DNA of 6,953 bases from Candidatus Vampirococcus lugosii (GTDB lineage Bacteria; Patescibacteriota; Gracilibacteria; Absconditabacterales; Absconditicoccaceae), in the NCBI RefSeq assembly GCF_018420025.1, contig NZ_JAEDAM010000052.1, forward strand, positions 1 to 6,953, read 5' to 3'. Below, piece after piece: positions 1 to 6,953 of the stretch. The translations under genes and the position numbers were made by a program. Each line of letters opens with the position of its first letter. Position 1 is the first letter of the stretch. The notes beneath the pieces are model-generated. The model had not been told where the DNA came from. It did no database searches and was given only the letters and a program-made list of their open reading frames with translations.

Positions 1-525
1 TAGGTTCAAATATTCTATTTATAGACATTAACATAATCTCATTTTTATATTTTTTGATTTTGGAGGTAATTCAGAAAGATTAGCTATATTTCTATGTTTT
101 ACTTTTTTTGTATCTTTATCTCTAAAAGATACAACAATATTAATAATTGATATAAGTTTTTCAATTATATTTATGAGTACTTTTTTTAATAAACATATTA
201 TGATTATTACACTTAAAATAATAAAAGATAAGAAATAATATATTTTATTATAATTAAAAAAGTTATAATTTCAAGAGAAGCCATAATAATAATCGCCACT
301 ACAAAACGCATTTTTAAATTCTTTTTCTTTAGTTCTTAACTTGTTTTTGCTATTTTTTATTTACAAAGATGAGATTAATATCAAGAAATAGGTATAAAAA
401 TTTATCGTTAGATAATTTATATACCTCAGTAAAAAATAGTTTATCAATTCTATTTTTAATTTCTGTTAAATCTCAGATTATATATCAGTTATATAATAGT
501 GGTTTATCCATAATAGTTTTATATA

Positions 526-2676
526 TTAGTTACAAGAACAACTTTCGTTAAGTTTTTTATTCCTTTCTTCAATCAAATTATTCATACTATCAACTTTTGC
601 ATTATATCTATTAACTGAATTATCACTATATTGGTTAACATACATATTATCAATTTCTAATTGTAAACTATTTATTTGTTTATCTAAAGAAGATGTATCT
701 AAGGATATTGGACAAGTGTAATCTCATGAAGTACACCAACAGTAATTATCTTTTTCATGATATCAAATGTCACACTTCCAAGCATTATAGTTATCTTCAG
801 GAACACAATACGCATGTTCAGGCTTAGTATATTCTATTCAATTTAATATACATTTATTAGAGTTACTATCTGTACTATTATTTGAAAATAAAGTATTTAT
901 ATCATCATTAGTGTAATCAGTATCATTTGTATAAGTATTACTTGATGAGTAATTATTAGAAGAAGAACTATAATTTGAATTATTAGATGCATCATCAGAA
1001 AAAACTGAAATAAGAATAAATATTCAAGTTAAAATAAGACATATCAATCACACCCATCATGACCATCAATTATTATTTTTTTTATTTATAATGAATCTAC
1101 TTAATGCTCAATATGTAATAGAATCAACATAAAAAATAAAAAAATAACCATCTTCTTCAGATAATTTTTCTAAAGCATCTGCTCTAATTGTATCTATATG
1201 ATCAAAGACTTCTTTTGCATTTAGCTTTCATGTTTCTACTTTAGAAAGATATGCCCTTATATTATTTAATATATTATCTAATCATTCTGGATTAATTCAT
1301 TCAAATAATTCGATATTATTTTTAGCTAATTCTTCTACTTTATTAAAATATTTTATAGCTTTGGGGTAATTTTCTGATTCAAATTCTTCTTTTCAATTTA
1401 AAAATATTTTTCATAATAGTCAAAAAACTGCTCTTTTTTTTAAATTTTTTAAATATATTTGATCCTCTTTATTAAATTTTTTATTTTCTAGTTCCTCAAT
1501 TTTTTTTGAAGCTCATATAAAGTCTTCATCATCTAATAATTGAATAATTGGTTTTAACTTTATATTTGCTGTAATAGTCTTATAATCTTCATTTATCTTA
1601 TGTTTTAATCAATCAGTACCTACTATATCAATTGCATAATTTAAAACTTTCAAAGCTTCATCTTCTTCATTTAACTCATTGTTTAAATCAAGCATAATAG
1701 TCCTAAAAGCTTCTGCTACTGTATCTCTGATTATTAAAGTTTTACTATCATCATATAATCATAAATCTTCTAATTTTCTTAGTAATTGAGTTATGTCATA
1801 ATGTATTTTTTTTACCTTTGCTTTTTCATCATCATCAAATACTCAATCCTCACTAATATTCATTTCTTCTAATTCTCTTGAAAGTTTACCTAAATCTAGA
1901 TAAATTTTTTCAACTTGTTCATTAGTCTTATTTCATTTAGTATTTTTGAAATATTTATGAAATTTTTTCAAAATCGAATCATCTCATAATTTTGTAGATA
2001 TATCATAAAAAATATTTGATAAATGCTTACCTAAATCTTTTCTAAATTCAGAAATTAAGTCTTTGTTAGTTGATATATCATCAAATAATAAATACTTTTT
2101 TTCAAACATTTTCCAAAACTTATCATCATCTTGTATCTCTTTAAATAGAGTTAAAGAATTTTCAACATATTCAGAATAATCAGAATTAATACTAGGATCT
2201 AACAATAATAAAGTGTATAATATTGCTAAATTCTTTTTATTATTAGATTTTTTAAATAAATCTATAGCATTATTATAATTTTTAGTATTATAAATTGAGA
2301 AAATATTTTTATCATCATCATTTTCAATATCAAACCAGAAAAAGGTATTTAATATTTTTTCTTTAGGATTAGTTAAACTATCTAATGCAGATTTTACATA
2401 TATTTCATTTCTATACTCATGTGTAAAATATAAATCATTTTCATAATCAGGCACTTCTCATATAGCTAAATATTTTAATACATCTTTAGCTCTTTTTGAT
2501 ATTTGTTTTTGATTAGAAGAAGTATCTAGTCATAAAATATTATAACTATTATTAATTAATGGATTATTTACAATAACATAATCTTTTTTAATTGATTCAG
2601 CACAATATTCACACCTAACTGAATCTCTATCAATTTCCTCATCACAGTAAGGGCATTTAATTAAATTATCATTCAT
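526..2676 (-). CDS. Zinc-ribbon + degenerate J-like domain + helical (TPR-like) region + single TM helix + Ser/Asn-rich stalk + Cys-rich domain + coiled coil (716 aa)
   Basis: ATG at 2676..2674 is preceded by an in-frame TAA three codons upstream and overlaps the previous gene's end by 11 nt (ATGAATGATAA). The stop TAA is at 526..528. The supplied ORF 1984..2454 is just the TGA-free, Gly-poor internal stretch (residues 75-230) of this CDS. The N-terminus is MNDNLIKCPYCDEEIDRDSVRCEYC. The J-like segment is SYNILGLDTSSNQKQISKRAKDVLKYLAIGEVPDYEN...IYVKSALDSLTNPKEKILNTFFWF. The TM helix is GWSGWVGLICLILTGIFILISVF. The Cys-rich part is KCILNGIEYTKPEHAYCVPEDNYNAWKCDIGYHEKDNYCWCTSGDYTCP. Confidence 0.85.
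1000..1068 (-). other. Single predicted transmembrane helix of the 716-aa protein
   Basis: GWSGWVGLICLILTGIFILISVF is the only long hydrophobic run in the protein. It is preceded by the basic IINKKNNN and followed by the acidic, polar SDDASNNSNYSSS. Confidence 0.7.
2332..2547 (-). other. J-like domain lacking the catalytic His (VPD instead of HPD)
   Basis: Residues 44-115 align by eye to the J-domain helices I-III. SYNILGLDTSSNQKQISKRAKDVLKYLA corresponds to YYEILGV..A...EIKKAYRKLAMKY. The loop GEVPDYE corresponds to HPD, with V75-P76-D77 at 2446..2454. IYVKSALDSLTNPKEK corresponds to I.EAYEVLSDP.KR. Confidence 0.5.
2602..2655 (-). other. N-terminal CxxC-x10-CxxC zinc ribbon of the 716-aa protein (paralogous to 3728..3781)
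   Basis: CPYCDEEIDRDSVRCEYC (residues 8-25). It has the same Cys spacing and the same KCPYCxEE start as the neighbouring gene. Confidence 0.7.
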
Positions 2677-3790
2677 AGTTATTTATTATAAAATTATTTA
2701 TTATAAAATCTCAATCACTTTTAACATTTTGTTTATTTTCTCACCAAATATATATATTTTCAAAATCTAAACCTTTTCCTCAGAATATTGCATAATAATA
2801 ATATATATCTCCATCAATATCAACTTCATATGAAAATTTATAAAAAGTATATCAATCGATTTTTCTAATATCACTTTCTATATTCTCTCATCAAATTGAT
2901 AGAATATATGATTTTAATCATAATCTAATTTGTTCATTATTTATATCATCAGAGTATATTTTAGCTGTTTCCTCATCTACTTTCTCAGGAATAAATAAAG
3001 TATAATTTCATTTATTAGTTAAAAATCATTTATTTGCATCTTCATTAATCTGAGACAAGGTTTTACTATCTAATTCTTCATTAATTAATAGACTAGAATT
3101 ATTAATAATTAGCCATTTATTAATAAAATATTGCGCATTTATTTCTTTAACTTTTTCAGCTTCATCTGAATAACCTTGAAATGCAATAAATGCTATAGTT
3201 CATAATATTGTAAAAAGGTAAATACTAACTAACCAAATTAATATATTATTTTTTTCTGCTTTACTTTTCTTTACAAAAATTAATAGAAGTAATAAATATA
3301 AGTCATAAAAAGGCACTAATAGTCATAATGAATACCATCAACTTCTTCATAGATTTTTAAATCTAAAAATTGAGAGTATAATTAATCATAAAGTATATAT
3401 TAATCATCAAGATCATTCTTCTCAAATTTCAAGTATTATTCATACTATAAATAATAATATAAATCATAAATTAAACCATAATCTTTTTAGTCATCCATCT
3501 TTTTCTTCTTCTATGTTTTGTTTATTCATGCCAATATTTTTTTCTTTATCTTCCAATTTCTCATTATTTTCTTTAATCTCTTCTTTTTTTTCTATTTTTT
3601 GTACTTCTGTAGATTTAACTTCTTCTTGTTTGTTATTAATATTAGTTTTCTCTTGCTTTTTATGTTTAAGTTCAGTTTTTTCTTCTTTTATCTCTTCCTT
3701 TTTTTCAACTCAAGTAAACCATTCTCAACAATATCTACATTTTTTGGCTTTATCTTGAACTTCTTCTTTACAATAAGGACATTTTTTCAT
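2666..3790 (-). CDS. Zinc-ribbon / Lys-Glu-rich linker / DUF805-like multi-pass membrane protein with a C-terminal domain of unknown function (374 aa)
   Basis: ATG at 3790..3788 lies 12 nt after the Hsp70 stop, in the same frame, and the stop TAA is at 2666..2668. The N-terminus is [25 protein letters not shown] (CxxC-x10-CxxC). A ~75-aa K/E-rich tract follows. Then come about four hydrophobic segments (LWFNLGFILLFIVGIILEI, LIYTLGLIILSIF, YSLGLLVPFYDLYLLLLLIFV, ILIWLVSIYLFTILGTIAFIAF). They contain RFKNLGRSGWYSLGLLVP, which resembles the DUF805 motif (R.hD.GrSGWW.LL.liP). The remaining ~170 aa have no recognisable domain. Confidence 0.85.
2679..2708. repeat. Perfect 15-bp tandem duplication (TTATTTATTATAAAA x2)
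   Basis: 2679..2693 and 2694..2708 are identical. The duplication is in frame in the 374-aa CDS (FIINN-FIINN near its C-terminus). It ends 3 nt upstream of the ATG of the next gene (2676). Confidence 0.95.
3488..3709 (-). repeat. Low-complexity Lys/Glu-rich coding tract with an internal 24-nt duplication (EKKEEIKE twice)
   Basis: Residues ~28-101 of the 374-aa protein. The octapeptide EKKEEIKE occurs at residues 29-36 (3683..3706) and 67-74 (3569..3592), and 22 of 24 nt are identical. The plus-strand ORFs 3513..3758 and 3518..3802 in the supplied track are antisense shadows of this tract. Confidence 0.85.
3728..3781 (-). other. N-terminal CxxC-x10-CxxC zinc ribbon of the 374-aa protein
   Basis: [18 protein letters not shown] (residues 4-21). 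Confidence 0.7.
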
Positions 3791-3802
3791 ATTTATATTT
3801 GA

Positions 3803-6307
3803 TTAATAAAGAGTAATTCCAGAAAGATTACCTCCTTCTATTCTTCATAATTCATCTTTAGGTAATAGTTTAAACAATTCTCTAACAACTGTAGCTAATT
3901 CATCTTTATTATTATTTTTCAAAGCATTTTCTCATTTTTTGAAATAATAATCAGCATCATCTTCGCTATTAAAGTTATATCAACCAAATTTTAAATCATT
4001 ATACATTCTTTCCCACCATTCTATAGTTTCCATTAATATAGATGTTCTTAATCCATCTAATTGTTCATTTATTGATGAAAGTAAAATTTTATCTTGAGTA
4101 TCTATTGCTTTTTTTCATCAGTTTTTTACTGTTTTATATCTAACAACTAATTCTTGAGCTTTATAATCATTAGTTTTTTCCATCTCATCAATGACTCAAT
4201 CTAATATTTCTGTTAATTCATTAAATAATTTTTCTTGAATATCAAACTCAGTATTTTTTTCTAAATTATCTATTTTAACTTTGAAATCTTTTAATTTTTT
4301 ATTAGCTTTTCTTTTTTCATCCTCATCATTATTAGCATTATTAACAGTTCATTCTAAATATGAAATTTCCTCATCAATTTCTTCTTTTTGAGTAGGTGTA
4401 AAACTAGCTCTAATTTTAGCATATCTTTCTTGTTCTCAATCTAAGTCTTTTTTTAATAGTCATAAATCAATTTCTTCATTTAATGTTGTAGTACGAACAT
4501 TTAAAGATAAATCAATTGAAGATATATATGCTTTTACTGATAATTGCCTTGAAGTATCAACCTCAATAGTTACTTCAACAGGAGTTCATGCTTCTAAATC
4601 ATAAGGGATTTTTTCTCATGAAATACCTAAATCACATATAAATTGATTTCTATCAGGATTTTCTGATTCTCATTCATACACTTTTATTGGTAGAGCATTA
4701 GTAGACTCTCCTTTTATTAAACTTTTACTAGTTTTAAATTCAATTGTTTTAGATAAAGGTAGTTTTGAATTTTTTTCAAAAAACCAATACATTTCATCTT
4801 TCCAAGATAAACCATTATTTTGTTTAGCAATTGATACTCAAATATTATATGGTATAGGAATACTTCAAACAGATAATCATTGTGAAATAGTAAAGCTATC
4901 ATTATTTAATTCTAAAGTGTTTCATTTAGAATCAATAAGATAAATCATATAATTATTGGTTTTTCATGCTTCTAATTTTATATTAGCTATAAACTTACCA
5001 TTTTTTATTAGGATTTTATTACTAGAATAATATCAACTTTCACTCTGTATTTGTATAAAAAATTCTTCATCTTCATTTAATCACTCAATGATTCAACTTA
5101 CCATTTCTTCATTTTCAGATGAGACAGCTTCATAGTTTAATTTAATATTATATGAATCTAGACATACTTTATTATTTTCTTTGAATTCATCTTTAATAAT
5201 TTGATTTGATGCATAAATAGCTCCTCCTTTAGAAACTACTGTTAAAGGATCTACACTAGAGTCCACTTCTATTCAAAATTCTTTTTCAAGTCTATCCTTA
5301 ATTATAGGAGATTGAGTACTTCATCATACTAATACTATTTTTTCAATAGAGTTTTTATCTACTCATGATTCATTTATAGTTTCTTTTACTAAAACTAAAG
5401 ATTTTTTCACAAAAGGTTCAACTAATTTTTCAAAATCTTTTTTAGTTATAGTTATATTTAAATAAATTTCATTTCCATTATCATCTTCTCATACTTTATC
5501 AATTTCAACATTAACCTCATTATCATAAGTCAACATTTTCTTTGTATTTTCAGCTAATCATTTAAGTATATTAAATACATTTTTATACTTTTCATTTCAT
5601 CTAGAAAAATTTAATAAAGAGAATTTTTCTGTTATTTTAGGTATAAAGATATTATCTACAATTGCCCAATCAAAATCTTTTCATCATAAAAAATTATCTC
5701 ATTTACTAGATAAGATATTTAACAATCAATCTTTTGATTGAATTAATGCTGTATCAAATGTTCATCCTCATAAGTCATAAACTAACCAATTAGTATTTTG
5801 TTCTTTTCAAAATCAATATGCTATAGCTGCAGCGATAGGTTCTTGCAACAAGACTACTTGTTTAAATCATGCCAATTCTCAAGACCTTTTAGTAGCTTCT
5901 GACTCTAAAGTTGAAAAATGTGCAGGAATTGTTATAACAGCTCCTATAGTATTAACTTCAGGATATTTTTTTAATACAGTACTTTTAAGATACTTTAATA
6001 ACTCAGCTGAAATTTCCTCAGCTTTCATATTTTTATCTACTCTAGGAAAAAATGTTATTTCAGGAGTTCACATTAACCTTTTTACTTCTGCTTTAAAATT
6101 TTGTATATCTCATTTATCAGCATATTTGAAGAGTTTTTCATAAGCTCTTTTTCACACCAGAGGATTATTTGCTTTATCATATCAAAAAACAGATGGTGTG
6201 AATTCATCCATTTCAAAATTTTTAATAATTTCTATATTTCAACAATTATTATATGCTATTGCTGAATTTGTAGTTCAAAGATCAATTCATATTTGAATAG
6301 TAGACAT
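3803..6307 (-). CDS. Divergent Hsp70-family ATPase (834 aa), not a canonical DnaK
   Basis: ATG at 6307..6305 is preceded by an in-frame TAA at 6311..6313, and the stop TAA is at 3803..3805. By my hand count there are 44 in-frame TGA codons. Hsp70 signatures appear only if TGA = Gly: MSTIQIGIDLGTTNSAIAY (phosphate-1), ITIPAHFS, LLQEPIAAAIAYG, WLVYDLGGGTFD (phosphate-2), GDNFLGGKDFD and KIVLVGGSTQSPII (adenosine motif). A substrate-binding beta-domain-like segment follows: NIGVSIAKQ...LPIKVYEGESENPDRNQFICDLGISGEKIPYDLEAGTPVEVTIEVDTSRQLSVKAY. After that comes a ~230-aa helical tail ending ...ELATVVRELFKLLPKDELGRIEGGNLSGITLY. Confidence 0.93.
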
Positions 6308-6318
6308 ATTTTATATGG

Positions 6319-6672
6319 TTAAGGTGTAAATTTATAAACAATGATTTTTGCTTGTTTTATTATATTTCAGTTATTTATCACAGCAGGTTCTATAGTATCT
6401 TTTATTATTCAATCTAATTCAGGAAAATTAGTATCTTCAGTAGCTTTTAATTCATAAAAATTTATTTCTTCTGAATATTTTTCTCATGAAAATCACTTTA
6501 GTTCAATATCCAAATCTTTTATAAATTTCTTTAATCTATCTAAACTTACAGAAATTTTTTCGTTATCTTGATCTTTTAAATAAACAATCTTAGAGATTTT
6601 TTCTCCTAATCTCCATATATCAACTGATAAATTAATCAATTTATTGATATCTATATTTTTATTATCTTTCAT
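6319..6672 (-). CDS. Small GrpE-like protein, candidate nucleotide exchange factor for the downstream Hsp70 (117 aa)
   Basis: ATG at 6672..6670 is the first start after an in-frame TAA. The frame stays open with 4 TGA read as Gly and ends in TAA at 6319..6321. Translation: MKDNKNIDINKLINLSVDIWRLGEKISKIVYLKDQDNEKISVSLDRLKKFIKDLDIELKGFSGEKYSEEINFYELKATEDTNFPELDGIIKDTIEPAVINNGNIIKQAKIIVYKFTP. The C-terminal half follows the GrpE beta-domain pattern (L..l.k.gvE.i...G..fd...h.a....d..p..v..v...GY.lnGr.iR.A.V.V.K). It sits 11 nt upstream of an Hsp70 gene, as grpE does relative to dnaK. Confidence 0.7.
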
Positions 6673-6851
6673 AAATTTTATTAATTTTTAAATATATTAT
6701 ATATAATTATTTTAATCAAAAATTCCAAAGACTTTTTACCTTATTTTTTTATCCCCCCCATTTTTTCGAGCGATAGCGAGATTTATATAAATATTATACC
6801 TTATTAAAAGACCTATAAAGCAATATCGCACAACTAATTTTTAAATATTTA
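6673..6851 (-). promoter_or_regulatory. Intergenic region upstream of the four-gene cluster; probable promoter region
   Basis: This is the only sizeable non-coding gap between minus-strand genes. There are two sigma70-like candidates on the minus strand. One is TTGCTT (6823..6818), a 19-nt spacer, then TATAAT (6798..6793). The other is TTGATT (6719..6714), a 17-nt spacer, then TATATT (6696..6691), which lies 18 nt before the ATG at 6672. Such hexamers arise easily by chance in DNA this AT-rich, so neither is secure. Confidence 0.35.
6753..6780. repeat. GC island: C7 homopolymer (6753..6759), A, T6 (6761..6766), then the 13-nt mirror repeat GAGCGATAGCGAG (6768..6780; AGCGA twice with a 6-nt period)
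   Basis: Read directly from the sequence: atcccccccattttttcgagcgatagcgag. It is the most G+C-dense non-coding stretch in the window. Confidence 0.9.
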
Positions 6852-6953
6852 TTATTTAATAGTAAATGATCTAATAGTATTATAAATATTTTCTTGTACT
6901 ACAGATTTAAAATCTATTGTTGATAATTCTCATTTTTTAAAAAGTTTGGATAA
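6852..6953 (-). CDS. 3' end of an unidentified upstream gene (partial; continues past the window edge)
   Basis: This is the only minus frame open from the window edge. It has 33 sense codons, LSKLFKKGELSTIDFKSVVQENIYNTIRSFTIK (one TGA read as Gly), then TAA at 6852..6854. The other two minus frames hit TAA/TAG within a few codons. No recognisable domain. Confidence 0.35.

What the first reader, a model, noticed from the sequence alone, without database searches (positions are those of the whole stretch)
526..6672. Self-contained, membrane-tethered, non-canonical Hsp70 machine: GrpE-like NEF, 834-aa Hsp70, zinc-ribbon membrane protein and zinc-ribbon J-like transmembrane protein
Four co-directional genes are packed with 11-nt and 12-nt gaps and one 11-nt overlap, behind a single 179-nt upstream region, which is a likely operon. 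The order NEF, Hsp70, J-like echoes the classical grpE-dnaK-dnaJ arrangement, but each component is aberrant. The NEF is only 117 aa. The Hsp70 is 834 aa, with an insert and a long tail. The J-like protein lacks the HPD His, has no G/F region and has none of DnaJ's CxxCxGxG zinc-finger repeats. It is also a single-pass membrane protein with a Cys-rich domain on the far side of the TM helix. An extra membrane protein sharing the same N-terminal zinc ribbon is inserted between the Hsp70 and J-like genes. About 6 kb is a large investment if, as is typical of these lineages, the genome is small. Hypothesis (inference only): the ATPase cycle of a dedicated Hsp70 is coupled through two zinc-ribbon membrane adaptors to events at or outside the membrane. 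This could serve surface or attachment-complex assembly in an episymbiotic lifestyle. It could also be an NTPase-gated conflict/defence module with the multi-pass membrane protein as effector. I recall that comparative-genomic surveys have noted non-housekeeping Hsp70 + NEF modules in predicted conflict systems, but I cannot verify from here whether this locus belongs to any described family.
Basis: partly seen in the sequence, partly recalled or inferred. Interest (0 to 1): 0.88.

Follow-up and report, generated by a model that had tools for sequence, protein, structure and literature searches.

The report
Mobile membrane-anchored Hsp70 cassette, AAA partner truncated

Summary
The component calls also hold. 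A has a GrpE fold (top Foldseek hits are GrpE structures) but no detectable sequence similarity. B has an intact Hsp70 ATPase domain, a ~115-aa insert, a weakly matching SBD-beta-like domain and a helical tail. D has a divergent J-like domain (V-P-D instead of H-P-D), a TPR-like solenoid, one TM helix and a Cys-rich ectodomain. C is a zinc ribbon plus a DUF805-like membrane block. The operon is not self-contained and not unique. In 92 related loci the conserved unit is GrpE-like, Hsp70, J-like/TM protein, then a Cdc48-D2-like AAA ATPase (77 loci). That unit has at least 581 matches among 185,579 species-representative genomes, in bacteria, archaea and viral contigs, often beside recombinases, integrases and restriction-modification genes. 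In the window the AAA gene is truncated after codon 45 (350-511). Gene C and D's zinc ribbon occur only in a tiny subclade. The likely mechanism is a membrane-docked Hsp70 cycle that feeds an unfoldase. The biological role is unproven, and the genomic context leans towards conflict. I found no published description.

The parts
6852..6953 (-). 3' end (34 codons) of an upstream gene that runs off the window
   Evidence: Direct reading of the minus strand in code 25. The only match is the re-assembly L009.
6673..6851 (-). 179-nt leader upstream of gene A; presumed promoter region
   Evidence: The promoter scan is not above chance, so the promoter is inferred and not shown.
6319..6672 (-). Gene A: 117-aa mini-GrpE-like protein (helical hairpin plus six-strand beta domain), predicted nucleotide-exchange factor. 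It lacks GrpE's long N-terminal helix and the TM anchor that most homologs carry.
   Evidence: AF2 model, pLDDT 83.7. Foldseek top hits are GrpE structures 1dkg, 9a81, 3a6m, 4ani, 9bls and 8gb3. No Pfam, NCBIfam, PDB-profile or HHalign signal. Found directly upstream of the Hsp70 in 85 of 92 loci. 64 of 85 homologs have an N-terminal TM helix.
5141..6307 (-). Gene B, residues 1-389: Hsp70 nucleotide-binding domain with intact catalytic motifs. The DnaK R167 equivalent is Val.
   Evidence: Pfam HSP70 E 7e-73. Family profile against DnaK NBD structures, E 1.8e-78. Motif census over 83 family members.
4796..5140 (-). Gene B, residues 390-504: family-specific insert between the NBD and the SBD-like region
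   Evidence: No counterpart in the DnaK alignment. Conserved across the family.
4481..4795 (-). Gene B, residues 505-609: region resembling the Hsp70 substrate-binding beta domain
   Evidence: Weak profile match to Geobacillus DnaK 375-493 (domain i-E 15), with the characteristic pattern ILPLxKT..FKT..LPIKVYEGE..N..L..G..VEVTIEV. The single sequence finds nothing.
3803..4480 (-). Gene B, residues 610-834 plus stop: long helical C-terminal tail, conserved in the family
   Evidence: No PDB sequence match.
2666..3790 (-). Gene C: 374-aa protein with an N-terminal zinc ribbon (1-25), K/E-rich linker (26-99), DUF805-like 3-4 TM block (100-206) and a clade-specific C-terminal domain (207-374). It is a lineage-restricted insertion, not a core part of the cassette.
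   Evidence: Pfam Zn_ribbon_3 E 8.5e-6 and a weak DUF805 match. Hydropathy. Exhaustive search found one full-length homolog among 1.84e9 representatives. Relatives are ZnR+DUF805, and one is DnaJ plus the same membrane block. Present only in WIN, L009, L010 and L011.
2587..2676 (-). Gene D, residues 1-30: zinc ribbon of the same type as C's. Absent from D homologs outside the C-containing subclade.
   Evidence: BLASTP of C against D: 11 of 21 identical. N-termini of 79 D homologs.
2332..2559 (-). Gene D, residues 40-115: divergent J-like domain with V-P-D in place of H-P-D
   Evidence: Profile A5 against the PDB: 17 of 18 hits are J domains, best E 0.014. Pfam DnaJ is hit by 18 of 35 members, best E 1.2e-3. 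HHalign against the E. coli DnaJ J domain: E 7.4e-5, probability 62%. Triplet census: x-P-x, with His in 5 of 52. The AF2 model is unreliable here, pLDDT below 50.
1075..2331 (-). Gene D, residues 116-534: all-helical TPR-like solenoid, cytoplasmic
   Evidence: AF2 pLDDT 70-92. Foldseek finds only generic TPR proteins (LGN, OGT, CTPR) with low TM scores. Weak Pfam TPR_2 match.
985..1071 (-). Gene D, residues 536-564: single transmembrane helix
   Evidence: Hydropathy. AF2 helix 541-559.
526..984 (-). Gene D, residues 565-716 plus stop: extracytoplasmic tail made of an S/N-rich linker, a small 8-Cys beta domain and a coiled-coil hairpin. This tail is variable among relatives.
   Evidence: Different tail types in L001/L007, L002, L004 and L010.
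350..511 (-). 53-codon stub of the cassette's AAA ATPase gene. Residues 1-45 match the N-terminus of the intact 364-aa AAA of relatives, then 8 unrelated codons and a stop.
   Evidence: tblastn: 87% identity over 45 aa to the L005 AAA. Reading frame. The breakpoint is also present in the Logan assembly L009. Nucleotide identity is 86%, not lower than the intact genes. NCBI annotates it as hypothetical protein VAMP_165n10.
1..349 (.). Tail of unknown origin beyond the AAA breakpoint. It holds an open frame without a start codon (28-360, minus strand).
   Evidence: No homolog in 91 loci and no repeat within the window. The Logan contig stops about 28 nt into it.

Best explanation
The locus is a lineage-specific copy of a widespread, horizontally mobile cassette. 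Its conserved core has four members: (1) a small GrpE-fold protein, usually anchored by an N-terminal TM helix; (2) an ~835-aa Hsp70 with a catalytically intact ATPase domain, an insert, an SBD-beta-like domain and a long helical tail; (3) a protein with an N-terminal J-like domain, a ~430-aa TPR-like solenoid, a TM helix and a variable extracytoplasmic tail; (4) a ~360-aa single-ring AAA ATPase most similar to the D2 module of Cdc48/VCP. Proposed mechanism (inferred). D sits in the membrane and uses its solenoid and variable ectodomain to bind or sense a client or signal. Its J-like domain docks the dedicated Hsp70 through a rewired interface: His of HPD is lost in D and the DnaK R167 equivalent is Val in the Hsp70. 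The Hsp70 clamps the client, the mini-GrpE resets it by nucleotide exchange, and the client is passed to the AAA ring for unfolding or extraction. This would be a membrane-docked Hsp70/AAA bi-chaperone analogous to DnaK-ClpB or Hsp70-Cdc48. In the Vampirococcus subclade an extra ZnR-DUF805 membrane protein (C) was inserted, D gained the same type of zinc ribbon, and A lost its anchor. In this assembly the AAA gene is cut after codon 45, so the window encodes at most an Hsp70-only version. The biological role is most likely that of accessory or conflict-related cargo of integrative elements, not housekeeping proteostasis. Shown: gene structure, folds and domains, conservation, synteny, distribution and context. 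Inferred: all protein-protein contacts, the client, the hand-over to the AAA and the biological role.
For: Component identities. AAA partner: E 3e-80 to VCP/Cdc48 D2, with Walker A and B conserved. Synteny in 92 loci: A in 85, D in 85, AAA in 77. Architectures: A-H-D-AAA in 44, A-H-D-D-AAA in 23, A-H-C-D-AAA in 3. Median gaps are 5, 3 and 8 nt. Distribution: 581 matches among 185,579 species-representative genomes, in CPR phyla, DPANN archaea, Nitrosopumilaceae, Omnitrophota, Elusimicrobia, Bdellovibrionales, Bacteroidota, Akkermansia, Pseudomonadota and Coriobacteriia including the isolate Enorma phocaeensis. This patchy, cross-domain spread means HGT and an accessory role. A permuted D-A-H-AAA variant occurs on IMG/VR contigs next to integrases. 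Flanks: large serine recombinases (6 upstream, 6 downstream among about 55 loci), methylases, restriction enzymes, Fic/SoFic, TraG, terminase and an OLD-nuclease/UvrD pair. Membrane association: TM helix in 64 of 85 A homologs, TM in D, variable D tails, and frequent extra small membrane proteins (DUF6804 in 15 loci downstream, DUF2569, C). Concerted change at the J/Hsp70 interface. AAA stub.
Against: No experiment or structure of any complex supports the contacts or the hand-over to the AAA. The J-like assignment rests on marginal E-values (0.014 against the PDB, 1.2e-3 against Pfam, below the gathering score), and the AF2 model of that region is unreliable. The SBD-like match is very weak. 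No PADLOC model matches any component meaningfully, and no copy was found in the plasmid or cultured-phage collections. Many loci are flanked by ordinary housekeeping genes, so the conflict role is only a lean. AAA-less versions (Coriobacteriia L085, L088, L090; L067) show the AAA is dispensable in some lineages, which weakens an obligatory hand-over model. The truncation here could be an artefact of whole-genome amplification.
Confidence: 0.6

Rival explanations
1. Anti-phage or abortive-infection defence system. D's variable ectodomain or solenoid senses infection at the envelope, the Hsp70/AAA pair acts as an NTP-gated switch, and the associated small membrane proteins (C here; DUF6804 or DUF2569 elsewhere) act as membrane-disrupting effectors.
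For: Patchy cross-domain distribution. Neighbours include serine recombinases, integrases, RM enzymes, SoFic and an OLD-nuclease plus UvrD pair. D tails and appended membrane proteins are variable. There is precedent for Hsp70/GrpE/DnaJ parts in predicted conflict systems (Kaur et al. 2020, PMC7159879; CoCoNuT CnuD, PMC11090510).
Against: There is no recognisable toxin, nuclease or pore-former in the core. No PADLOC match. Only a minority of loci sit next to known defence genes. The appended membrane proteins are not universal. No phage-challenge data exist.
Confidence: 0.3
2. Envelope or surface-structure assembly and quality-control machine. A dedicated membrane-docked chaperone inserts, extracts or assembles particular membrane or cell-surface proteins, useful to episymbionts.
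For: Both cofactors are usually membrane-anchored. D has an extracytoplasmic Cys-rich or coiled-coil tail. CPR and DPANN lineages are strongly represented among hits. Prepilin peptidase (5 loci) and S49/NfeD (4 loci) are recurrent neighbours. The Hsp70 plus Cdc48-like pairing recalls ERAD-type extraction.
Against: The cassette also occurs in non-episymbiotic lineages and on viral contigs. It is present in only about 0.3% of species, and its linkage to recombinases argues against a lineage-defining lifestyle function. CPR enrichment in the top 80 hits is biased by the CPR query.
Confidence: 0.2
3. Simply the organism's divergent housekeeping grpE-dnaK-dnaJ operon.
For: The gene order NEF-Hsp70-J echoes grpE-dnaK-dnaJ. 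An hrcA gene lies about 2.3 kb upstream in the related MAG L005/L006. I could not check whether V. lugosii has a canonical dnaK.
Against: NCBIfam DnaK and HscA equivalog scores are far below cut-off (256 against 648 bits). The family is an orthologous ~835-aa clade, about 50% identical across phyla and domains, and is found in organisms that certainly have canonical DnaK (Enorma, Akkermansia, Bacteroidota, Pseudomonadota; established knowledge). Only about 581 of 185,579 species carry it. The cofactors are TM-anchored, lack HPD and are linked to an AAA ATPase and recombinases.
Confidence: 0.05
4. A decaying, non-functional remnant: with the AAA gene destroyed, the rest of the operon is on its way to pseudogenisation.
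For: The AAA gene is truncated to 53 codons. L081 shows an AAA broken into three fragments, so decay of this gene does happen.
Against: A, B, C and D are intact, with no frameshifts and all Hsp70 catalytic motifs. The stub is 86% identical at nucleotide level to the intact orthologs, no more diverged than Hsp70 (84%) or A (81%), so the break is recent or artefactual. AAA-less A-H-D cassettes persist in Coriobacteriia.
Confidence: 0.15

Closest known systems
Canonical DnaK-DnaJ-GrpE (KJE) chaperone system
   Same: An Hsp70 ATPase with intact catalytic residues, a GrpE-fold partner encoded immediately upstream, and a partner with a J-type N-terminal domain downstream. The order is NEF-Hsp70-J.
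   Different: The Hsp70 is 834 aa, with a ~115-aa insert and a 225-aa tail. The R167 equivalent is Val. The NEF is half-size (no long dimerising helix), unrecognisable by sequence, and TM-anchored in most members. The J-like domain has no HPD His, no G/F region, no zinc-finger domain and no CTDs, and instead carries a TPR-like solenoid, a TM helix and an ectodomain. A dedicated AAA ATPase is a core member. The distribution is patchy and mobile.
Hsp70-AAA+ bi-chaperones (DnaK-ClpB/Hsp104 disaggregase; Hsp70 with Cdc48/p97 in ERAD) (established knowledge)
   Same: An Hsp70 cycle paired with a substrate-threading AAA ring. The cassette AAA is most similar to Cdc48/VCP D2 (E 3e-80).
   Different: Here the two are encoded in one operon. 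The AAA is a single-module ~360-aa protein with a novel ~90-aa N-domain, not a double-ring ClpB or Cdc48. No M-domain or other known Hsp70-docking element is present. Coupling is inferred from synteny only, and the AAA is truncated in this window.
Membrane-anchored and degenerate J proteins: E. coli DjlA and DjlC (the partner of the atypical Hsp70 HscC), Sec63, and Pam18/Pam16, where Pam16 is a J-like protein lacking HPD (recalled from established literature, not tested here)
   Same: A J or J-like domain tethered to a membrane recruits a dedicated Hsp70 to a site of action. Pam16 shows that J-like domains without HPD can be functional regulators.
   Different: There is no sequence relationship beyond the J fold. 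D has an N-terminal J-like domain followed by a large solenoid and a C-terminal anchor. Its Hsp70 partner is a distinct 835-aa clade.
GAP1-N2 GTPase-centred conflict systems with HSP70, GrpE and DnaJ/TPR-FNIII proteins (Kaur, Burroughs, Iyer, Aravind 2020, PMC7159879)
   Same: A non-housekeeping Hsp70 plus GrpE plus a J- or TPR-containing partner in a predicted conflict context.
   Different: Those systems are defined by a GAP1-N2 GTPase and FNIII-repeat proteins and are mainly in Actinobacteria and Firmicutes. No GTPase or FNIII protein occurs in the window or recurs in about 55 surveyed neighbourhoods. They have no AAA partner.
CoCoNuT CnuD Hsp70-like proteins (Bell et al. 2024, PMC11090510)
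   Same: [quoted passage not shown]
   Different: CnuD is linked or fused to McrB/McrC homologs, has degenerate Walker-like motifs and is predicted to bind RNA. Here the catalytic motifs are intact and there is no McrBC.

Membership tests
Hsp70 (PF00012) | Actin-fold nucleotide-binding domain with the phosphate-1/2, adenosine and catalytic residues (DnaK D8, K70, E171, D194, T199, D201) | tested here: met
   Pfam E 7e-73 over residues 6-389. Profile against DnaK structures E 1.8e-78. GIDLGTTNS, AEVKRLMG, QEPIAAA and YDLGGGTFD are conserved family-wide.
Hsp70 (PF00012) | Substrate-binding beta-sandwich domain followed by a helical lid, directly after a short hydrophobic linker | tested here: inconclusive
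   Only a weak profile match of residues ~505-609 to DnaK 375-493 (domain i-E 15). It is separated from the NBD by a 115-aa insert. The C-terminal half alone has no PDB sequence hit.
DnaK / HscA equivalogs (NCBIfam) | Full-length score above the curated cut-off | tested here: not met
   256 bits against a cut-off of 648 (DnaK NF001413). 243 bits against 709 (HscA TIGR01991).
GrpE (PF01025) | Sequence-profile membership | tested here: not met
   No Pfam or NCBIfam hit at E<=1. The family profile against the PDB finds no GrpE at E<=10. HHalign against E. coli GrpE is not significant.
GrpE (PF01025) | Fold: helical hairpin (four-helix-bundle half) plus a C-terminal compact beta domain | tested here: met
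   AF2 pLDDT 83.7. Foldseek finds 1dkg_A at E 1.2e-4, TMq 0.64, probability 1.00. 11 of the top 13 PDB hits are GrpE from five organisms.
GrpE (PF01025) | Long N-terminal alpha-helix forming the dimeric coiled-coil stalk | tested here: not met
   The model starts with the hairpin at residue 9. Homologs have a TM helix and short linker instead.
GrpE (PF01025) | Nucleotide-exchange activity on its Hsp70 | not testable with these tools
   Needs biochemistry or at least a multimer model.
J-domain proteins (PF00226) | About 70-aa four-helix J domain | tested here: inconclusive
   Profile against the PDB: 17 of 18 hits are J domains but the best E is 0.014. 18 of 35 members hit Pfam DnaJ, best E 1.2e-3, below the gathering score. 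HHalign E 7.4e-5, probability 62%. The AF2 region has pLDDT below 50, although its helix pattern fits helices I-IV. The window protein alone gets no Pfam DnaJ hit.
J-domain proteins (PF00226) | Invariant His-Pro-Asp tripeptide between helices II and III | tested here: not met
   The window has V-P-D. The family has x-P-x with His in 5 of 52 and HPD in 1 of 52. The Hsp70 residue that pairs with the HPD Asp (DnaK R167) is Val throughout the family.
Type I DnaJ | G/F-rich region and four CxxCxGxG zinc-finger repeats | tested here: not met
   Absent from the sequence. The Cys residues are in an N-terminal CxxC...CxxC ribbon and an extracytoplasmic 8-Cys domain.
GAP1-N2 GTPase / HSP70 / GrpE conflict systems (Kaur et al. 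2020) | A GAP1-N2-type TRAFAC GTPase and an FNIII-repeat protein in the same neighbourhood | tested here: not met
   None in the window. No GTPase or FNIII family appears among the recurrent Pfam families in 150 upstream and 150 downstream neighbours.
GrpE-like / 835-aa Hsp70 / J-like-TPR-TM / AAA cassette (defined here) | GrpE-fold gene, then ~835-aa Hsp70, then J-like/TPR/TM gene, co-directional with gaps of a few nt | tested here: met
   Window architecture against 92 loci.
GrpE-like / 835-aa Hsp70 / J-like-TPR-TM / AAA cassette (defined here) | Intact ~360-aa Cdc48-D2-like AAA ATPase as the last core gene | tested here: not met
   Only codons 1-45 remain, followed by 8 unrelated codons and a stop. 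The AAA is intact in 70 or more relatives.
Known anti-phage defence systems (PADLOC-DB 2.0) | Significant match of any component to a defence-system model | tested here: not met
   Hsp70 and D: no hits. A: E 0.009-0.014 to PDC candidates. C: low-complexity match to LmuB.

The most novel reading that the evidence does not exclude
The window is a member of a previously undescribed, cross-domain family (bacteria, archaea, viral contigs) of four-component Hsp70 machines. In these, the canonical J-domain/Hsp70 contact (HPD with R167) has been rewired on both partners, the GrpE-type exchange factor and the J-like adaptor are both membrane-anchored, and the Hsp70 is hard-wired by operon structure to a single-ring Cdc48-like unfoldase. 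This would be a prokaryotic, mobile, membrane-docked counterpart of Hsp70/Cdc48 extraction systems, or a new class of chaperone-based conflict system.
Probability: 0.4. Interest if true: 0.8.

Novelty: new variant of a known kind. Interest (0 to 1): 0.66.

Why it matters
Hsp70 biology rests on a nearly invariant rule: a J domain's HPD motif triggers ATP hydrolysis and GrpE resets the cycle. This cassette keeps the three-part logic. It drops the HPD His and the matching Hsp70 arginine, shrinks GrpE and anchors it to the membrane, and adds a dedicated Cdc48-like unfoldase in the same operon. It spreads horizontally across bacteria, archaea and viral contigs. If the parts work together as the synteny implies, this would be a compact natural example of Hsp70-to-AAA substrate hand-over at a membrane and an alternative solution to J/Hsp70 coupling, testable with four small proteins. 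It could also be an unrecognised chaperone-based conflict system. For this organism, it means a 6-kb 'orphan' locus in a reduced predatory CPR genome is acquired accessory cargo, currently without its AAA partner.

Full report
OBSERVATION. Under the standard bacterial code the 526-6672 region is broken into short ORFs. Reading UGA as sense gives four long minus-strand ORFs. UGA falls on the glycines of the Hsp70 signatures IGIDLGTTNS, DLGGGTFD and LVGGST, so the code is 25 (UGA=Gly), not 4. The genes are A 6319-6672 (117 aa), B 3803-6307 (834 aa), C 2666-3790 (374 aa) and D 526-2676 (716 aa). The gaps are 11 and 12 nt, C and D overlap by 11 nt, and a 179-nt leader follows the stop of an upstream gene at 6852. 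The window is the entire 6953-bp contig of Candidatus Vampirococcus lugosii. A separate Logan assembly, L009, is 99.97% identical. GC is about 22% throughout. Promoter-like sites are no more frequent than in shuffles, and no terminator-like site on the coding strand interrupts the block. Co-transcription is therefore plausible but not shown.

WHAT THE FOUR PROTEINS ARE.

An AlphaFold2 model built on 23 homologs (pLDDT 83.7) shows two helices followed by a six-strand beta domain. Foldseek against the PDB then returns GrpE almost exclusively. E. coli 1DKG scores E 1.2e-4, TM 0.64-0.67 and probability 1.00, followed by Thermus, Geobacillus, human GrpEL1 and M. tuberculosis GrpE, for 11 of the top 13 hits. 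A is therefore a mini-GrpE by fold, without the long N-terminal stalk helix.

Protein B has an Hsp70 nucleotide-binding domain (Pfam E 7e-73; family profile against DnaK structures E 1.8e-78) with all catalytic motifs conserved across 83 family members. A ~115-aa insert follows. Then comes a stretch (about 505-609) that aligns weakly (domain i-E 15) but recognisably to DnaK's SBD-beta, and then a 225-aa helical tail with no PDB sequence match. NCBIfam DnaK and HscA equivalog scores are far below cut-off.

Protein D: the full-length AF2 model (pLDDT 66) resolves a 430-aa helical solenoid, a TM helix, a disordered S/N-rich linker, a small Cys-rich beta unit and a coiled-coil hairpin. It leaves residues 23-93 unreliable. 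I therefore built a 35-sequence alignment of the conserved N-terminal ~88 residues from diverse loci. Against the PDB, 17 of 18 hits are J domains (best E 0.014). Pfam DnaJ is the only recurrent family, hit by 18 of 35 members with a best E of 1.2e-3. HHalign against the E. coli DnaJ J domain gives E 7.4e-5 and 62% probability over helices I-IV, putting the window's V-P-D opposite H-P-D. Across the family this triplet is x-P-x, with His in 5 of 52 and HPD in 1 of 52. On the Hsp70 side, the position of DnaK R167, which pairs with the HPD Asp (established knowledge), is an invariant Val (VVLLQEP against RIINEP). Both sides of the canonical contact have changed. The solenoid matches only generic TPR proteins.

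Protein C has a zinc ribbon (Pfam E 8.5e-6), a K/E-rich linker, a 3-4-helix membrane block and a C-terminal domain. An exhaustive search of 1.84 billion representatives finds one full-length homolog. Everything else matches the ribbon alone or the ribbon plus membrane block. Those relatives are ZnR+DUF805 proteins. One, P0172, has a canonical DnaJ domain in place of the ribbon.

THE SURROUNDINGS CHANGE THE PICTURE. The 834-aa Hsp70 is not a local oddity. Full-length relatives of about 835 aa at about 50% identity occur in many phyla. Neighbourhoods of six homologs showed the same unit: small protein, Hsp70, ~530-705-aa protein, then a PF00004 AAA ATPase of ~360 aa. A scan of species-representative genomes found 581 relatives. 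They lie in CPR phyla, DPANN archaea, Nitrosopumilaceae, Omnitrophota, Elusimicrobia, Bdellovibrionales, Bacteroidota, Akkermansia, Pseudomonadota and Coriobacteriia, including the cultured Enorma phocaeensis. Profile searches over 92 loci find A-like proteins in 85, D-like in 85 and the AAA in 77. The architectures are A-H-D-AAA (44), A-H-D-D-AAA (23, with D split) and A-H-C-D-AAA (3). Most absences are at contig ends, and median intergenic distances are 5, 3 and 8 nt. The AAA is most similar to the D2 module of VCP/Cdc48 (E 3e-80) and keeps Walker A and B. Of the A homologs, 64 of 85 carry an N-terminal TM helix. D tails differ sharply even among close relatives.

WHAT IS SPECIAL ABOUT THE WINDOW.
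(i) Fourteen nt after D's stop there is an ATG at 511. The first 45 codons are 87% identical to the N-terminus of the intact AAA of L005, then come eight unrelated codons and a stop at 350. The break is also present in the Logan assembly. That assembly crosses the break without a branch and ends about 28 nt beyond it, roughly k-1 for its k=31 graph. This suggests the downstream sequence has a second context in the reads, such as a repeat, a mobile-element end or a chimera. The stub is 86% identical at nucleotide level to orthologs, no more diverged than Hsp70 (84%) or A (81%), so the break is recent or artefactual. The genome came from MDA/MALBAC-amplified consortia (PMC8080830), so a chimera cannot be excluded. 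The tail 1-349 matches nothing. Genuine AAA loss or decay does occur elsewhere (L081 fragmented; Coriobacteriia L085, L088 and L090 and also L067 lack it).
(ii) Gene C and the zinc ribbon on D occur only in the window, L009 and L010/L011. L010 has them together with an intact AAA. L005, the closest other relative, has neither.
(iii) A here lacks the TM anchor.

CONTEXT AND ROLE. Pfam surveys of 150 downstream and 150 upstream neighbours from about 55 code-11 loci show several recurrent families. DUF6804, a small membrane protein often directly after the AAA, appears 15 times downstream and 4 upstream. Large serine recombinases appear 6 times on each side. Others are DNA methylases, restriction endonucleases, Fic/SoFic, TraG, terminase, Cro/C1 regulators, prepilin peptidase (5) and S49/NfeD (4). 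These are mixed with housekeeping genes, and no GTPase recurs. In IMG/VR, one close copy (L092) lies next to an OLD-family nuclease and a UvrD-type helicase. Seventeen contigs carry a distant, permuted D-A-H-AAA variant with a longer AAA, and integrases are its commonest neighbours. Curated plasmid and phage collections hold no copy. PADLOC has no matching model.

MECHANISM. Shown: four or five tightly linked genes, the domain identities above, membrane anchoring of two cofactors, intact ATPase motifs in both NTPases, and concerted change at the J/Hsp70 interface. Inferred: D is the membrane-resident adaptor or sensor; its J-like domain recruits the dedicated Hsp70 by a rewired contact; A acts as the exchange factor; and the client is passed to the Cdc48-like ring for unfolding or extraction. 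The patchy cross-domain distribution and linkage to recombinases, integrases and RM genes make an accessory, probably conflict-related role more likely than housekeeping or a lifestyle-specific assembly function. None of this is tested. In this window the machine lacks its AAA partner, at least in the assembly.

COMPARISON WITH KNOWN SYSTEMS. It works like a KJE chaperone triad joined to an AAA unfoldase (DnaK-ClpB, Hsp70-Cdc48). It fails the membership tests for DnaK/HscA equivalogs, for GrpE at sequence level, for bona fide J-domain proteins (no HPD) and for type I DnaJ. The Kaur et al. 2020 systems with HSP70, GrpE and DnaJ-FNIII are defined by a GAP1-N2 GTPase, which is absent here. CoCoNuT CnuD proteins are McrBC-linked and have degenerate motifs. 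Eight full-text searches found no description of this cassette or of DUF6804. Subscription-only literature was not searchable.

VERDICT. The component calls are right. 'Self-contained' and the central role of the zinc ribbons are wrong, and the truncated AAA was missed. The locus is a new variant of a known kind, an Hsp70 co-chaperone system in a novel, widespread four-component architecture. Interest is 0.66. It would be higher if the cassette proves undescribed and the Hsp70-to-AAA coupling or a defence function is demonstrated.

Noticed in passing
window 350-511 (minus strand): A 53-codon stub of a Cdc48-D2-like AAA ATPase gene directly after gene D. It is annotated in NCBI only as hypothetical protein VAMP_165n10. 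The intact gene (~360 aa) follows D in 77 of 92 related loci.
   Followed up: yes
window 1-349; L009 end: The sequence beyond the AAA breakpoint has no homolog anywhere and holds a 111-codon open frame without a start (28-360, minus strand). The independent Logan contig stops about 28 nt (about k-1) into it, hinting at a repeat, a mobile-element end or a WGA chimera.
   Followed up: partly
P0172 (relative of C found): A 379-aa protein has a canonical DnaJ domain (Pfam E 2e-13) in front of the same linker and DUF805-like membrane block that C carries behind its zinc ribbon. This is an independent domain-swap link between this membrane module and Hsp70 recruitment.
   Followed up: partly
L002 13936-14313, L016, L017, L018, L022, L031 and others: DUF6804, a small multi-pass membrane protein of unknown function, is the gene directly after the AAA in 15 of about 55 loci (plus 4 upstream), often followed by DUF2569. 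It is a possible fifth, variable member of the cassette. No paper mentions DUF6804.
   Followed up: partly
L093-L109 (IMG/VR contigs): A distant (25-32% identity) sister family has the same four components in permuted order (D-A-Hsp70-AAA) and a longer AAA (470-598 aa), next to tyrosine integrases and excisionase-type HTH genes.
   Followed up: partly
L092 114-4294: An OLD-family nuclease (AAA_15 + OLD-TOPRIM) and, probably, the next gene as a UvrD-type helicase lie immediately upstream of a close copy of the cassette. This pair resembles Gabija. The helicase assignment to that particular gene was not individually checked.
   Followed up: no
L085, L088, L090 (Coriobacteriia) and L067: These are A-Hsp70-D cassettes with no AAA gene despite 4-8 kb of downstream sequence. 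In L085 (Enorma phocaeensis) D has a ~240-aa N-terminal extension rich in G-[YF]-D/N repeats. L081 has the AAA in three fragments.
   Followed up: no
L005/L006 1244-1942 and 4594-5292: An hrcA homolog (the heat-shock repressor that usually precedes grpE-dnaK-dnaJ) lies about 2.3 kb upstream of the cassette in the closest Gracilibacteria MAG, separated from it by an EPSP synthase gene. This may be coincidence or a trace of the canonical operon's position.
   Followed up: no
database homologs P0125, P0132, P0133 etc.: Many public translations of Gracilibacteria/Absconditabacteria homologs carry Trp where the window has Gly, because they were translated with code 4 instead of code 25. This degrades alignments and structure predictions built from them.
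   Followed up: no
window 6735-6760 (minus strand leader): The leader contains an unusual G7 run (AAAAAATGGGGGGGATAAAAAAATAAGG) in otherwise 18-20% GC DNA, about 60-80 nt upstream of gene A's start.
   Followed up: no
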